From: Escherichia phage VTCCBPA_211
DNA: 64,000 nucleotides
Direction: 5' to 3' (one strand)
Sequence record: PP989838.1
The notes beneath the pieces were generated by a model that had not been told where the DNA came from, ran no database searches, and saw nothing but the letters and a program-made list of their open reading frames with translations. Shown one piece after another: positions 9,380 to 31,627 of the stretch (positions are counted from its first letter, which is position 1; each line of letters opens with the position of its first letter). The translations under genes were made by a program, and so were the position numbers.

Positions 9380-9456
9380 GCGCCCTTAGTTCAATTGGAC
9401 AGAACATCGGATTTCTAATCCGTCGGTTACAGGTTCGAATCCTGTAGGGTGCGCCA
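9380..9456 (+). tRNA. tRNA-Arg (anticodon UCU)
   Basis: Hand-folded cloverleaf: acceptor GCGCCCT/AGGGTGC, D-arm GTTC..GAAC, anticodon loop TTTCTAA, T-arm ACAGG TTCGAAT CCTGT, 3' CCA encoded. Confidence 0.8.
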
Positions 9457-27382: not shown

Positions 27383-27589
27383 ATGACTGAAGAAGAGTTC
27401 CAAGAACTGAAAGGTTTGACTACCGAGGTTCAATTAAAAGCTATGACATTTGGTCGAGCATGTCATCGATTTGATACTTGTGATGAAAGCAGTAAAGAAG
27501 CTTGTAAGAGTTATATGGATAAGAAGCACCTTGAATGGGGTAAAGCTTCTAATGATCTTTATGACTACATGAAGGGTTTAGTAAAATGA
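27383..27589 (+). CDS. hypothetical small protein
   Basis: ATG overlaps upstream stop. Confidence 0.5.
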   Translation: MTEEEFQELKGLTTEVQLKAMTFGRACHRFDTCDESSKEACKSYMDKKHLEWGKASNDLYDYMKGLVK

Positions 27590-27783
27590 AAAAGTGGATT
27601 GTTCGTGTACATGATAACACGACTGGAGAGTTAGTAGCTGTAGATTTTGTTAATACTCGAGACCACGCCCGTAGGGTCAAAAACCAATACAAGTCTACTT
27701 TTAGACTCAATAAGGTTACAATAGGAAAAGCTTTCGTAAACAGTGAAGGTGCTTTTCTTTCCAATAGTAAGGTTTATTATTAA
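27586..27783 (+). CDS. small-protein paralog family B, member 1
   Basis: W.V...T.....F.TR.(E/H)AR..K..(K/Y) pattern, ends in YY. Confidence 0.55.
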   Translation: MKKWIVRVHDNTTGELVAVDFVNTRDHARRVKNQYKSTFRLNKVTIGKAFVNSEGAFLSNSKVYY

Positions 27784-27992
27784 TGAGACCAATCACTATG
27801 AGAAAATTTTGGTTAGCAAAGATTGAGTGGGCATCAGGTGGCATGACTATGACTGCACTACCCACTCGCCAACAAGCTCGAGATTTTAAAAAGACTATGC
27901 TTACTGGTGACGTGGTCAATAGTATCAGTATCCATAAGGCCAAGGAGTATTCTTCTGGTCGTGTTTATATCAGCGGAAAGGTGCATTACTAA
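27783..27992 (+). CDS. small-protein paralog family B, member 2
   Basis: PTRQQARDFKK; ends HY. Confidence 0.55.
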   Translation: MRPITMRKFWLAKIEWASGGMTMTALPTRQQARDFKKTMLTGDVVNSISIHKAKEYSSGRVYISGKVHY

Positions 27993-28201
27993 TGAAAAAG
28001 ATGTGGGCTATTCATGTTGTTTGGGATCTTGAGCAACACATGAGAAAAGATAGCATCAAATTGTTTGACACTCGCAAAGAGGCTCGTATTGCTAAGAAAC
28101 AGTTGAAGACTCTGGGCACAATAGTAAAAAGCGCTGACATACATCGCTGGTATGAAGGCCCTAACACTGGTTCTTTTATGTCTAAAGTAATTTACTACTG
28201 A
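27992..28201 (+). CDS. small-protein paralog family B, member 3
   Basis: DTRKEARIAKK; ends YY. Confidence 0.55.
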   Translation: MKKMWAIHVVWDLEQHMRKDSIKLFDTRKEARIAKKQLKTLGTIVKSADIHRWYEGPNTGSFMSKVIYY

Positions 28202-28273
28202 TTGGTAGTAGATATGATAACTCTCAAATGTATATAGAGTACAATAAGAATTTGTATTTTACAGGAGAGAGTT

Positions 28274-28603
28274 ATGTTAGATTTGAGTAAAGTGGCCCCG
28301 CCCACTGAAGAGATTACAAAATCCAAGGTGATGCAACAGTTTTATCATCGTGATATGCTTGGTCGCTTTATCAAGAATCGTGATGTTGTTGCTTGGTCTA
28401 TTGGTAATCAGGGGTATCTGTTGAAGGTTCTTCAGGTTACAGGTTCAACTGCTAAGCGAGTTAAGGTGTATGACCCTGAAATGGGGCGTTCTAAGTCAGT
28501 AGACCCACAGAACTGCATCGTAATTACCCAGCAGGTAATGGATAATATTGCACGTAACGTTGCTAACTCAGTTGAACTTGATGGAGAAAACCCAAATGCA
28601 TAA
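28274..28603 (+). CDS. hypothetical protein
   Basis: ORF; stop overlaps Dps-like start (ATGCATAA). Confidence 0.55.
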   Translation: MLDLSKVAPPTEEITKSKVMQQFYHRDMLGRFIKNRDVVAWSIGNQGYLLKVLQVTGSTAKRVKVYDPEMGRSKSVDPQNCIVITQQVMDNIARNVANSVELDGENPNA

Positions 28604-29159
28604 GAATGTCTTTGATTTACCTGAGATTGGTCGTGACAGTTATAGCATGTTAGACCGGTCCGACCTATCAATCTCTCGCCTTGAAACGATGCAAGGTATG
28701 ATTAGTGGAAACAGCCTAGAACACATCCTGAGCTGCTTACAAGCTAACATGGAACTCTTGCATATCAAAGCTAAAAACTACCACTGGAACGTCTCTGGTG
28801 CAGGATTTCAGGGTGTTCATGGTATGTTTGACGAGCTGGAAGATTACGCACGACAGGTAGGAGATCGTATTGCTGAACGTATGCGTTACCACTGTGTTAA
28901 AGTGGATGCTACAGCAGCTAACTACCTCTCTCATGCTTGGTTCTCAGAGGGTAATGCTGATCTAGACATGGACGGTATGCTCTCTGATATGTGCATGACC
29001 TTGATGTGTATTATTGAGAAGATGGATGAGTTTGATGGCGATTTAGCCACCTACCCTGTCGATCAGAGTATGCTTCAAGAAATTAATGAAGGTCTTGGCA
29101 AGTATTGCTACTTCGTCAAGAGCAACATGTCCCACTCAAGTGGTGATGTGTCTTACTAA
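28596..29159 (+). CDS. Dps/ferritin-like protein
   Basis: NYHWNVSGAGFQGVHGMFDELEDYA matches the Dps ferroxidase-site signature HWNV.G..F..LH..F.E. Confidence 0.7.
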   Translation: MHKNVFDLPEIGRDSYSMLDRSDLSISRLETMQGMISGNSLEHILSCLQANMELLHIKAKNYHWNVSGAGFQGVHGMFDELEDYARQVGDRIAERMRYHCVKVDATAANYLSHAWFSEGNADLDMDGMLSDMCMTLMCIIEKMDEFDGDLATYPVDQSMLQEINEGLGKYCYFVKSNMSHSSGDVSY

Positions 29160-29219
29160 AACCTCCGCCCTGTCTCCTAACCCGAGGTGGGGCGAACTTA
29201 TTTATAAGGATATAGATAT

Positions 29220-29399
29220 ATGTTATCAGCAATCGTATGGGGTATTTGGGCTATCTTTATTGGTGGTGGTATTTATTGGGCTTCTGGTAAGCTTATTGAA
29301 GAAACCCCTGATAAGAAAGGTGAGATTCAAACAGCATCAACTATCATGGTTATCGTAGCTGTTGTTATCCCATTCCTGCTTCACCTCCTGACTGCATAA
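29220..29399 (+). CDS. small two-TM membrane protein (59 aa)
   Basis: ATG 29220, TAA 29397-29399; two hydrophobic segments. Confidence 0.4.
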   Translation: MLSAIVWGIWAIFIGGGIYWASGKLIEETPDKKGEIQTASTIMVIVAVVIPFLLHLLTA

Positions 29400-29407
29400 G
29401 GATTTAC

Positions 29408-29680
29408 ATGACTAAAGTAATTAAGTTTTATAGTGATCAGTGTGCTCCATGTAAAGCAATGGCTCCTACCTTTGAGAAGGTTGTTAAGGAGTTTGATGTA
29501 GAAGTGGAAGAGATTAACATCCTTGAAGGTGATGGTCGTGAACAAGCTGTTAAGTATGGTGTACGAAGTATCCCTGCTTTCGTTGTACCTGACCGTAACA
29601 GTGGTGCACACTACAGCCTCTCTGGTATGCAGACCGAAGCAAACCTGAAAGCATTCTTAACTACTGCCCTAGGTGTTTGA
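29408..29680 (+). CDS. thioredoxin-like protein (CAPC active site)
   Basis: KVIKFYSDQCAPCKAMAP; thioredoxin-fold length (90 aa). Confidence 0.75.
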   Translation: MTKVIKFYSDQCAPCKAMAPTFEKVVKEFDVEVEEINILEGDGREQAVKYGVRSIPAFVVPDRNSGAHYSLSGMQTEANLKAFLTTALGV

Positions 29681-29886
29681 TTATGAAAAAATATTGGACG
29701 GTGGTATATTACCTCTACCAAGACCCGGCTATACCTGTTACAGAGCACTTTGCTACTCGTAAAGATGCTCGCCGTTTTAAGAAGGCTCTTAAGATGGCCC
29801 CAAAGATTTATAGTAAAGTAAGCTTACATAAATCAACATTGTCAGAGATGGGAACCTTAGTGGTTTATTATGTAAAAGAATATTAA
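29677..29886 (+). CDS. small-protein paralog family B, member 4
   Basis: ATRKDARRFKK; ends EY. Confidence 0.55.
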   Translation: MIMKKYWTVVYYLYQDPAIPVTEHFATRKDARRFKKALKMAPKIYSKVSLHKSTLSEMGTLVVYYVKEY

Positions 29887-29901: not shown

Positions 29902-30558
29902 ATGAATGAACAATTACAAGCAACATTAATCGAAGCTATGGGAAGTGATCGTAGCGTAGTAAACGCAGCTCGAGTTTCCTTTGGCGTAACCCGTGAAGGT
30001 GATTTAAATGAACGTGATGAACGTCTCATCAACTTCCTCGCAAGAGAGAAGCATGTTACTCCATTCCGACACCCACAAGTCAGTTTCCGATGCAAAGCAC
30101 CTATCGCAATTGCGAGACAGTTGGGCAAGCATCAGGTTGGATTCTCGTGGAACGAAATGTCCCGGCGGTATAAAGATGGAGCAGTTGAAGTCTTCATCCC
30201 TAAAGAGATTTTTGCGAGACCTTCGGACCTCCATGCAGGTTCAGGGGTTCAACTCATCGATGGAGAACGAGCTGAAGCGTTAATGTTGATTAATGATGCA
30301 TATGAAGCTTCTCTAGCAGCATATGACAAGTTGATTGAATTCATTGCACCAGAGCAAGCTCGATTTGTTCTTCCTCAGGGGATGATCACTGAGTGGGTAT
30401 GGACTGGTTCTTTGTATGGCTGGTTTGAGTTATGTCGTCAGCGACTCTCCTCTCACGCTCAATATGAAGTTCGAGTGTTTGCTAAATCTCTGGATGAAGA
30501 GATGGCTAAACTTTACCCAATCTCATGGGCAGCTCTGAAGAAAACTTTGGAGAATTAA
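29902..30558 (+). CDS. thyX: FAD-dependent thymidylate synthase ThyX homolog with variant signature (KHQ in place of RHR)
   Basis: Collinear with ThyX as I recall it (AARVSF, TPF.H, KAPI..ARQ, S.NE.S.RY, SHAQ); RHR position reads KHQ. Confidence 0.8.
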   Translation: MNEQLQATLIEAMGSDRSVVNAARVSFGVTREGDLNERDERLINFLAREKHVTPFRHPQVSFRCKAPIAIARQLGKHQVGFSWNEMSRRYKDGAVEVFIPKEIFARPSDLHAGSGVQLIDGERAEALMLINDAYEASLAAYDKLIEFIAPEQARFVLPQGMITEWVWTGSLYGWFELCRQRLSSHAQYEVRVFAKSLDEEMAKLYPISWAALKKTLEN

Positions 30559-30692
30559 TGTTGGAAGAAGATGACGATGTGTTCTGCACCAAGTGTGGGA
30601 TGACAGTTGATGATGCATATGACCCAAGTGTAGAAATCTGCCCTTGTTGTGGAGTATGTGAATATTGCTGTTCCCACAACTCAGAGGATTAG
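30558..30692 (+). CDS. small zinc-ribbon peptide (44 aa), speculative
   Basis: ATG overlaps thyX stop; CTKCG...CPCCGVCEYCC. Confidence 0.3.
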   Translation: MLEEDDDVFCTKCGMTVDDAYDPSVEICPCCGVCEYCCSHNSED

Positions 30693-30704: not shown

Positions 30705-30938
30705 ATGAAAATCAAACATATTACAGATATTCAGGAGGCATTTAGGATGCTTCCTCGAAGAGAGAAGGATAAGATTAAAAAGCTTATTCAAGTTTATGGT
30801 CATACATCTAAAGATGATGTAGACTATATGCCTTCTACTTTCGTAGAGTGTGGGATTGCTCGCGGTTTCACATTCGACCATAAAGTGTTTCAGCAATTCG
30901 TTGACCACTGGAGAAAAGATGGAAAAGAAAGTCTGTAG
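30705..30938 (+). CDS. hypothetical protein
   Basis: ORF. Confidence 0.5.
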   Translation: MKIKHITDIQEAFRMLPRREKDKIKKLIQVYGHTSKDDVDYMPSTFVECGIARGFTFDHKVFQQFVDHWRKDGKESL

Positions 30939-31104: not shown

Positions 31105-31304
31105 AAACTTTGTGGACTCTTGACTGCCAAGACGAGGACGGAGAGCGTTGGACTTGGAAATATTTCCTAGGGAAACCGACACCTGATAATCCTGCTTTGG
31201 ATTGTGCTTCATATGAAGACGCCAAGAAATTGGTAAACGGAGAGAAAGTTCGGTCTCCGGATAATGAAGTTATGTACTTTTTAACAGAACGGAAATTTTC
31301 ATAA
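31101..31304 (+). CDS. hypothetical small protein
   Basis: ATGA coupling with upstream gene. Confidence 0.5.
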   Translation: MKTLWTLDCQDEDGERWTWKYFLGKPTPDNPALDCASYEDAKKLVNGEKVRSPDNEVMYFLTERKFS

Positions 31305-31627
31305 TGATCGATGGTAATACATTTAGGACTTCAAATGGAAGTGAAATAAGTCCCGCTGAAGTAATCAATCGGCATAGAAGGCAATTGATCATCCATTCCT
31401 ATTTGTATTACTGGTTGGATGACCCTATCTGGTCTGATGATAAATGGCAACAAGTTGCTAATGATCTAGTGGAGCTACAAGCCCTGTATCCAGAACCTAC
31501 CGGAGTCTTTGACAACGAGTTTAAAGATTGGGATGGTTCTACAGGTATGCATCTCCCACATAACGAAGCTGTTGCTTGTATGGCGACAGCTGTTTACAGA
31601 CTTCATAAAGAGGTTAACGTCGCATGA
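31304..31627 (+). CDS. hypothetical protein
   Basis: ORF. Confidence 0.55.
   Translation: MIDGNTFRTSNGSEISPAEVINRHRRQLIIHSYLYYWLDDPIWSDDKWQQVANDLVELQALYPEPTGVFDNEFKDWDGSTGMHLPHNEAVACMATAVYRLHKEVNVA

What the first reader, a model, noticed from the sequence alone, without database searches (positions are those of the whole stretch)
27586..29886. Four-member paralog family of 65-69 aa proteins with a TR(K/D/Q)xAR...KK core
27586-27783, 27783-27992, 27992-28201 and 29677-29886 all start with a W-containing hydrophobic beta-like segment, carry (T/D)TR.(E/H/D/Q)AR..KK and end in aromatic dipeptides (YY, HY, YY, EY). Three are tandem and translationally coupled; the fourth sits next to thioredoxin and ThyX. 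Function unknown.
Basis: seen in the sequence. Interest (0 to 1): 0.5.

Follow-up and report, generated by a model that had tools for sequence, protein, structure and literature searches.

The report
Four small basic paralogues, phiEco32-like phage
Four short genes in this phiEco32-like E. coli phage are true, anciently duplicated copies of one small, positively charged protein family found only in this phage group; its function is untested, and my best guess is that it binds nucleic acid.

Summary
The window is a Kuravirus (phiEco32-like) phage genome. ORFs A 27586-27783, B 27783-27992, C 27992-28201 and D 29683-29886 are significantly related. Five of six pairs have shuffle z above 6. A profile built from three paralogue groups finds the fourth at E 3e-7 to 1e-9. 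All four match one catalogued but uncharacterised family, PHROG 4939 (E about 1e-26).

The family is tiny: 26 clusters at 50% identity among 1.84 billion representatives, all stand-alone proteins of 65-79 aa. Every member whose genomic context I read (5 of the 26 clusters, plus the annotated phages) lies in a phiEco32-like phage. Each genome examined has 3-4 copies, nearly all in two fixed slots: dCTP deaminase to the 109-aa gene/Dps, and thioredoxin to ThyX. phiEco32 itself lacks D.

The only conserved residues likely to be exposed are a basic stripe on the helix (R28, R32, K35, K36, K39). From this I infer polyanion binding, most likely nucleic acid (confidence about 0.4). The main rival is inhibition of host proteins.

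This is a real, ordinary orphan family of modest interest. Small corrections: D most likely starts at ATG 29683, and A carries KN rather than KK.

The parts
27586..27783 (+). Paralogue A (65 aa, pI 10.2). Orthologue of phiEco32 phi32_71. ATG overlaps the stop of the upstream 68-aa ORF (ATGA).
27783..27992 (+). Paralogue B (69 aa; 64 aa if it starts at ATG 27798). Orthologue of phi32_70. TAATG overlap with A.
27992..28201 (+). Paralogue C (69 aa, pI 9.9). Orthologue of phi32_69. TAATG overlap with B. Last gene before the early/middle promoter region. This is the paralogue that was modelled.
29683..29886 (+). Lies between thioredoxin (29408-29680) and ThyX (29902-30558). Accessory gene, absent from phiEco32.
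28191..28234 (+). Context: promoter-like region just downstream of C. It holds a sigma70-like TTTACT-16-TATGAT (28191-28218) and AATGTATA (28227-28234), which matches the phiEco32 gp36 sigma motif tAATGTAtA. It marks the early/middle boundary, so A-C are the last early genes and D is a middle gene.
   Evidence: PMC8948821; PMC4281155

Best explanation
A-D are anciently diverged paralogues (23-30% identity) of a small, basic, stand-alone alpha/beta protein family, catalogued as PHROG 4939. Every member whose genomic context I could read comes from a phiEco32-like phage (Kuravirus/Gordonclarkvirinae or a metagenomic relative). Probable very distant members occur in GAP52-type phages.

Each genome examined keeps 3-4 copies, nearly all in two fixed slots inside the replication/nucleotide-metabolism module.

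Shown here: the paralogy; the restricted distribution as far as context was read; the conserved slots with variable copy number; purifying selection; and a confident predicted beta-beta-alpha-beta-beta fold.

Inferred: W5, A31, the hydrophobic helix positions 34 and 38, and the C-terminal Tyr form the core, and T27 caps the helix. That leaves R28, R32, K35, K36 and K39 as a continuous, conserved (three invariant or nearly so) basic stripe on the exposed face of the helix. K/R8 and K/R52 on the sheet are also conserved.

Proposed mechanism: this stripe binds a polyanion, most likely RNA or DNA backbone, during early (A-C) and middle (D) infection. The variable beta1-beta2 loop and C-terminal hairpin would give each paralogue its own specificity. 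The stop/start overlaps of A-B-C allow, but do not show, co-production in fixed proportions.
For: - Paralogy and family.
- Distribution: 90 word-index hits were all orthologues of A-D. Only 26 clusters at 50% identity were found in 1.84e9 representatives, all 65-79 aa. No close relative was found in 185,579 bacterial and archaeal species genomes.
- Fixed slots and copy-number variation.
- Purifying selection: dN/dS is 0.05-0.30, against 0.01-0.09 for dcd, Dps, Trx, ThyX and PhoH.
- Fold: pLDDT 83.6 with elements b2-11, b21-25, a28-39, b45-56, b60-63. Independent BFVD models that, by length and identity, look like the other paralogue types superpose at TM 0.66-0.87.
- Conservation map: R28 and R32 are invariant and K35/K36 are 93% basic. 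K39 is 67% basic, K/R8 78% and K/R52 89%. Positions 31, 34 and 38 are hydrophobic. By helical periodicity the basic residues share one face and the hydrophobic residues the opposite face (inference).
- All 27 diverse members have pI 9.5-11.1.
- Context is always replication genes, including the marginal GAP52 member next to DNA polymerase.
Against: - There is no experimental datum on binding, expression or phenotype.
- No significant sequence or structure match to any characterised nucleic-acid-binding family.
- About half of the other small proteins in the same phiEco32 region are also basic, so charge alone discriminates poorly.
- Invariant Arg residues could be structural, through a salt bridge to E30 or the C-terminal carboxylate, or through cation-pi contact with W5.
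- I could not inspect model coordinates, so exposure is inferred from periodicity only.
- None of the orthologues was detected in the SU10 lysate proteome.
- No repeated DNA or RNA motif that could serve as a target was found nearby.
Confidence: 0.4

Rival explanations
1. Host-takeover or anti-defence inhibitors. Each paralogue would bind and block a different host protein, such as a defence or housekeeping factor. The conserved residues would only maintain the scaffold, and duplication and divergence would reflect an arms race.
For: - The genes are small, phage-restricted and multi-copy, with variable copy number and an accessory fourth copy.
- They evolve faster than neighbouring enzymes.
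- A-C belong to the early class, which is described as host-takeover rich (PMC8948821; PMC4281155).
- Gordonclarkvirinae are unusually resistant to restriction-modification systems, with no known inhibitor or DNA modification (PMC11990801).
Against: - The genes sit inside the replication/nucleotide module rather than among the diverse far-early genes.
- dN/dS is well below 1, with no sign of positive selection at whole-gene level.
- Residues conserved across 23-30%-identical paralogues include five likely surface basic positions. That fits a shared ligand class better than unrelated protein targets.
- Known DNA-mimic restriction inhibitors are acidic, whereas these proteins are basic.
- A-C lie about 30 kb into the early transcription unit, which is late for blocking restriction at DNA entry (inference).
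Confidence: 0.3
2. A very divergent phage branch of the bacterial DUF2188 (PF09954, 'YdaT-like') family, itself of unknown function. The two would share the W-A-V-K strand, the T-x-x-E-A helix cap, the I-H strand, a Gly turn and a late Tyr.
For: - The motifs are collinear.
- hhalign aligns W/W, T/T, EA/EA, IH/IH, G/G and Y/y in register, with P 0.004-0.006.
- Only 1 of 200 column-permuted templates reaches the observed score.
- The DUF2188 model is b-b-b-a-b-b, which is the family's topology plus one N-terminal strand.
Against: - hhalign probability is only 6-8%.
- There is no Pfam hit at E <= 1 for any of 27 members.
- The DUF2188 model searched against BFVD does not return any kuravirus member among its listed top 50 (E up to 1.1). 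The family model returned no DUF2188-named protein in its top 50.
- I chose DUF2188 from memory because of the same motifs, so the test is partly circular.
- The DUF2188 template alignment was shallow (Neff about 2).
Confidence: 0.15
3. Substrates or carriers for the phage's ATP-grasp/amidoligase peptide-modification genes (RimK-like phi32_80 and its neighbours), with the near-invariant C-terminal Tyr as the ligation site.
For: - The C-terminal Tyr is present in 25 of 27 members.
- The family co-occurs with the ATP-grasp, GATase and GGACT genes in all loci seen.
- RimK-type enzymes modify protein C-termini (general knowledge, not tested here).
Against: - The co-occurrence is not independent, because all carriers are related phages.
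- The hydrophobic periodicity of the last strand suggests the Tyr is a core residue.
- The genes are not adjacent to the ATP-grasp gene.
Confidence: 0.03
4. The ORFs are not functional genes, that is, they are chance or decaying ORFs.
For: They were not detected in the SU10 proteome, and no direct expression data were found.
Against: - They are conserved across about 98 phage records and divergent metagenomic relatives, with dN/dS 0.05-0.30.
- Shine-Dalgarno elements sit at correct spacing.
- The predicted fold is confident.
- Family profile E-values are about 1e-26.
Confidence: 0.02

Closest known systems
PHROG 4939 (phage orthologous group, function unknown); orthologues phi32_71/70/69 of phage phiEco32
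   Same: There are full-length profile matches for all four genes and for 15 of 15 distant metagenomic members. The size, gene order and genomic slot are the same as in phiEco32, Paul and NJ01.
   Different: Nothing differs. This is the family. It has no assigned function, and I found no paper that discusses it.
Pfam DUF2188 (PF09954), small bacterial proteins of unknown function
   Same: The size is similar. The order of conserved motifs is collinear (WAVK strand, Thr-capped EA helix, IH strand, Gly, Tyr). The topology is b-b-a-b-b, with one extra N-terminal strand in DUF2188.
   Different: There is no Pfam hit, hhalign probability is 6-8%, and reciprocal Foldseek does not link them. DUF2188 lacks the R..R..KK basic stripe and has a conserved C-terminal DP.PP tail that is absent here.
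RRM / ferredoxin-like split beta-alpha-beta domains (for example CELF1 RRMs, bS6, cyclase and polymerase palm domains)
   Different: The first beta-alpha unit and the RNP1/RNP2 aromatic motifs are missing. The connectivity differs (b-b-a-b-b, not b-a-b-b-a-b). No RRM appeared among the Pfam hits at E <= 1.
Arginine-rich helices of phage antiterminators (lambda/P22 N peptides)
   Same: Both have a Thr-Arg start followed by spaced Arg/Lys on one helical face. In this family the pattern is T-R-x-E-A-R-x-x-K-K. The comparison is from memory and is a lead only.
   Different: Here the helix is part of a folded domain, not a free peptide. No boxB-like target is known, and nothing was tested.
Small phage-encoded inhibitors (T4 Dmd, AcrIIC3, T7 Gp2)
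   Different: There is no sequence similarity, the scores are in the noise range for 60-70-residue folds, and the charge character differs.

Membership tests
PHROG 4939 | Full-length match to the family profile HMM | tested here: met
   A-D match at E 1.8e-26, 5.1e-28, 6.3e-28 and 9.5e-26, covering profile positions 1/2-67 of 67. Of the distant members, 15 of 15 hit only this PHROG.
PHROG 4939 | Orthology and synteny with phiEco32 phi32_69-71 | tested here: met
   A, B and C are 86%, 86% and 96% identical to phi32_71, 70 and 69, in the same order after dCTP deaminase. D has no phiEco32 orthologue.
DUF2188 (PF09954) | Pfam HMM score above the gathering threshold (22 bits) | tested here: not met
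   No DUF2188 hit at E <= 1 for any of 27 members. A bona fide DUF2188 control sequence scores 110.9 bits.
DUF2188 (PF09954) | Profile-profile similarity | tested here: inconclusive
   hhalign probability is 6-8% with P 0.004-0.006. The motifs align in register, and 1 of 200 permuted controls reaches the score.
DUF2188 (PF09954) | Reciprocal structural similarity of the models | tested here: not met
   The DUF2188 model (pLDDT 85.7) searched against BFVD lists no kuravirus family member in its top 50. The family model lists no DUF2188-named protein in its top 50.
RRM (RNA recognition motif) | b-a-b-b-a-b topology with RNP1 and RNP2 motifs | tested here: not met
AP2 / integrase-type three-stranded-sheet DNA-binding domain | b-b-b-a fold and a Pfam AP2 match | tested here: not met
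Known anti-defence proteins (Dmd, AcrIIC3 and similar) | Significant sequence or structure similarity to a characterised inhibitor | tested here: not met
Nucleic-acid-binding proteins (functional class) | Demonstrated binding to DNA or RNA | not testable with these tools
   Only indirect evidence exists: a conserved basic helical stripe and pI 9.5-11.1.

The most novel reading that the evidence does not exclude
The family is a previously unrecognised class of mini nucleic-acid binders: an RRM-like half-domain presenting an arginine-rich helix. On this reading phiEco32-like phages have expanded it into 3-4 specialised copies. These could coat or mark phage DNA or transcripts during replication, and could contribute to the unexplained broad resistance of Gordonclarkvirinae to restriction-modification systems.
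Probability: 0.07. Interest if true: 0.7.

Novelty: new member of a known kind. Interest (0 to 1): 0.3.

Why it matters
phiEco32-like phages are common and are candidates for phage therapy, yet most of their early and middle genes have no known role. Their resistance to restriction systems is also unexplained (PMC11990801). This family is kept in 3-4 copies, is confined to this lineage as far as context could be read, and sits inside the replication module. That makes it a reasonable, cheap target for deletion and binding experiments in the K-12-infecting BASEL isolates. As it stands, this is a well-supported description of an orphan gene family, not a new mechanism.

Tried and rejected
- Pfam, NCBIfam and PDB sequence searches gave nothing significant. 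The only hits were CELF1 RRM at E 0.02 and scattered hits at E > 0.03.
- The Foldseek afdb50 library was unavailable.
- The DUF2188 lead was recalled from memory. I tested it with hhalign, permutation controls, a DUF2188 model and a reciprocal Foldseek search. It is suggestive in sequence but not confirmed in structure.
- The AP2/integrase-type domain idea arose from a weak HMM hit to an HNH endonuclease tail in L004. It has no support.
- The search for a fifth member in the window found none.
- The search for iterons or repeated DNA or RNA targets near the genes gave only chance-level repeats and no nucleotide similarity between paralogues.
- Rfam found only a tRNA.
- Uniformly basic pI turned out to be a weak argument, because about half of the neighbouring small proteins are also basic.
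- The phiEco32 papers with macroarray data (PMC3275717, PMC2587145) were not held. The expression class therefore rests on the SU10 and 7-11 papers' summaries.
- Literature searches for the PHROG id, the phi32_69-71 names, and Kuravirus transcriptomics or toxicity screens found nothing on these genes.
Full report
**What the window is.** A 6-kb stretch around the finding is 93-96% identical at DNA level to about 98 phage records. These include Escherichia phages Paul, NJ01, 172-1 and other members of Kuravirus, Gordonclarkvirinae, the phiEco32-like podophages. In the annotated relatives the four genes are 'hypothetical protein'. The exception is NJ01, where the orthologue of D is labelled 'putative ABC transporter', which is clearly a mislabel.

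**Checking the observation.** The four ORFs are present as described. They align over their whole length, with M1, W, T-R, A-R, K and the terminal Y invariant.
- Pairwise Smith-Waterman scores against 2000 shuffles give z of 6.2-10.6 for five of six pairs and 2.8 for A/C.
- I built profiles from the orthologues of three paralogue groups and searched all 785 six-frame ORFs of the window. The omitted paralogue scored E 3e-7 to 1e-9, with the best noise at E > 0.5.
- All four match one PHROG (phrog_4939, unknown function) at E about 1e-26.
- The pattern TR..AR..K occurs only in these four ORFs in the window, and there is no fifth member.
- The junctions ATGA, TAATG and TAATG, and Shine-Dalgarno-like elements 8-10 nt upstream, are visible in the sequence.
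Orthologues begin MKKYW, so D is 29683-29886.
- B may start at 27798, as in some orthologues.

**Distribution.** A word-indexed search of 5.8 billion proteins returned 90 hits. All were orthologues of A, B, C or D at 59% identity or more. An exhaustive HMMER search of 1.84 billion 50%-identity representatives, using a 14-sequence profile, found only 26 clusters at E <= 1e-3. All were stand-alone proteins of 65-79 aa. Across 27 diverse members, W5, T27, R28 and R32 are invariant, and A31, K35 and the terminal Y are nearly so. No close relative was found in one genome for each of 185,579 bacterial and archaeal species. I read contigs for three of the distant clusters, and two further clusters turned up as neighbours on those contigs. 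All of these contigs are phiEco32-like phage genomes with the same gene order; the context of the remaining clusters was not examined.

**Copy number and position.** A family HMM run over all fetched loci shows that nearly all copies sit in two slots.
- Slot 1 lies between dCTP deaminase and the conserved 109-aa gene/Dps-like gene, and holds 2-3 copies.
- Slot 2 lies between thioredoxin and ThyX, and holds 0-2 copies.
- One contig (L004) has a further weak member just upstream of thioredoxin.
- phiEco32 has only A-C (phi32_71, 70, 69) and nothing between thioredoxin and ThyX.
- D-type genes at 76% identity or more occur in about 19 of the roughly 98 records, so D is accessory.
- Foldseek against viral models also links proteins of Salmonella phage SE131, Cronobacter phages GAP52 and CsaP_009, and Aeromonas phage LAh_8.
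- In GAP52 the candidate (gp065, 80 aa) is only marginal in sequence (E 0.009). It lies directly next to the DNA polymerase gene.

**Selection.** Against Paul, NJ01 and phiEco32, dN/dS is 0.05-0.30 for A-D. The genes are therefore maintained by purifying selection. They change faster than dcd, Dps, thioredoxin, ThyX and PhoH, which show dN/dS 0.01-0.09 and 98-100% protein identity, against 72-97% for A-D. There is no nucleotide-level repeat between the paralogues, so the duplications are old.

**Expression class.** Just downstream of C lie a sigma70-like promoter match (28191-28218) and AATGTATA (28227-28234). AATGTATA matches the tAATGTAtA element recognised by the phiEco32 gp36 sigma factor (PMC8948821). 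In phage SU10, CDS 25-68 are classed as middle genes and CDS 69-125 as early genes, by homology with the phiEco32 macroarray data. Promoters sit upstream of CDS68, the 109-aa gene, and no terminator ends the early unit (PMC4281155). By synteny, A-C are the last three early genes, and D lies in the middle unit. None of the orthologues was among the 34 proteins detected in the SU10 lysate proteome. Expression is therefore inferred, not shown.

**Structure.** AlphaFold2 on C, with a 14-sequence alignment, gives mean pLDDT 83.6 and pTM 0.66. The elements are beta 2-11, beta 21-25, helix 28-39, beta 45-56 and beta 60-63. Independent BFVD models that, by length and identity, look like the other paralogue types superpose at TM 0.66-0.87.
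- A profile search of PDB sequences gives only the strand-plus-helix region of the CELF1 RRMs at E 0.02.
- I read this as a generic split beta-alpha-beta sandwich with no identifiable characterised relative.

**A lead that did not hold up.** From memory, the motif order (WAVK strand, Thr-capped E-A helix, I-H strand, Gly, late Tyr) resembles Pfam DUF2188.
- A control sequence confirmed my recollection of that family.
- hhalign aligns all motifs in register, but with probability 6-8% and P 0.004-0.006. Only 1 of 200 column-permuted controls reached the score.
- A DUF2188 model (pLDDT 85.7) has the same topology plus one N-terminal strand.
- Searched against the viral structure library, that model did not return any kuravirus member in its listed top 50. 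The family model had not returned any DUF2188-named protein either.
- The link is therefore unproven. DUF2188 has no known function in any case.

**Mechanism.** The column-by-column conservation map shows hydrophobic residues at 5, 6, 7, 31, 34, 38, 48, 50, 62, 63 and 69. Basic residues are conserved at 2, 8, 28, 32, 35, 36 and 52, and less strongly at 39 and 47. E/D at position 30 is also conserved.
- On a helical wheel, A31, position 34 and position 38 share one face, presumably packed on the sheet.
- R28, R32, K35, K36 and K39 share the opposite face. This is inference from periodicity, because I could not inspect coordinates.
- The only conserved residues that look exposed thus form a basic stripe. 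All 27 members have pI 9.5-11.1.
- The simplest reading is binding of a polyanion, most likely nucleic acid. This fits the constant placement among replication and nucleotide-metabolism genes.
- About half of the other small proteins of the region are also basic, so charge alone is weak evidence. The invariant arginines could also be structural.
- I put this model at about 0.4.

**Rival explanations.**
- The main rival, at about 0.3, is a set of protein-binding inhibitors of host factors. It is favoured by the copy-number variation, the faster evolution, the early timing of A-C, and the unexplained restriction resistance of Gordonclarkvirinae (PMC11990801). It is disfavoured by the shared basic surface, the position within the replication module, and dN/dS well below 1.
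- A role as substrates of the phage ATP-grasp peptide ligase, through the C-terminal Tyr, is conceivable but unsupported.

**Verdict.** The genes are new instances of an already catalogued but wholly uncharacterised, lineage-restricted phage family. This is a modestly interesting finding. It is useful as a target for experiments, but it is not evidence of a new kind of system.

Noticed in passing
window 29683-29886; NC_018835.1 NJ01_076: The NJ01 orthologue of D, which is 100% identical, is annotated 'putative ABC transporter' in GenBank and RefSeq. A 67-aa soluble basic protein cannot be one, so this is a misannotation that may propagate.
   Followed up: partly
window 31304-31627: This 107-aa protein consists only of the NAD+-binding Ia domain of NAD-dependent DNA ligase (Pfam Nlig-Ia, E 2.7e-35). 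Relatives annotate it as 'DNA ligase' although it lacks the ligase core. A stand-alone NAD/NMN-binding domain in a phage could be interesting in its own right.
   Followed up: partly
window 28191-28234: The intergenic region after paralogue C carries a sigma70-like promoter match and AATGTATA, the phiEco32 gp36 sigma-factor motif. The motif occurs 8 times in the window, against 2.8 expected by chance.
   Followed up: partly
window 27383-27589: A 68-aa acidic ORF (phrog_2347, unknown function) sits between dCTP deaminase and paralogue A and overlaps A's start (ATGA). It is present in Paul and NJ01 but absent from phiEco32 and the metagenomic relatives.
   Followed up: partly
window 30705-30938: A 77-aa ORF is annotated 'anti-restriction nuclease' in the RefSeq records of Paul and NJ01, but it has no Pfam hit here. 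The basis of that name is unclear.
   Followed up: no
L004 5539-6759 (orthologue of window 25412-26839): The nucleotidyltransferase upstream of dCTP deaminase has a faint precomputed Pfam hit to Gad2 (anti-Gabija) in one metagenomic relative. The window copy shows only a weak PolyA_pol head-domain hit (E 0.02). The BASEL paper speculates that this enzyme is involved in DNA modification.
   Followed up: partly
window 29166-29194: A terminator-like GC-rich hairpin (11 pairs) followed by a T-rich tail lies directly after the Dps-like gene, within the middle transcription unit and upstream of thioredoxin and paralogue D.
   Followed up: no
window 9380-9456: A tRNA-Arg (anticodon TCT) gene lies in the early region.
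   Followed up: no
window 30525-30692: A 55-aa Cys-rich ORF (CxxC...CPCCGVCEYCC) overlaps the end of ThyX, with a weak zinc-ribbon hit (E 0.04). In Paul a shorter 43-aa version is annotated as 'membrane protein'.
   Followed up: no
L012 38271-38513 (Cronobacter phage GAP52 gp065): This 80-aa protein lies next to DNA polymerase I. It has W...TRKAAR and a Foldseek match to the family (E 3e-3) but only a marginal HMM score (E 0.009) and no PHROG hit. It is probably a very distant family member in Grimontviridae.
   Followed up: partly
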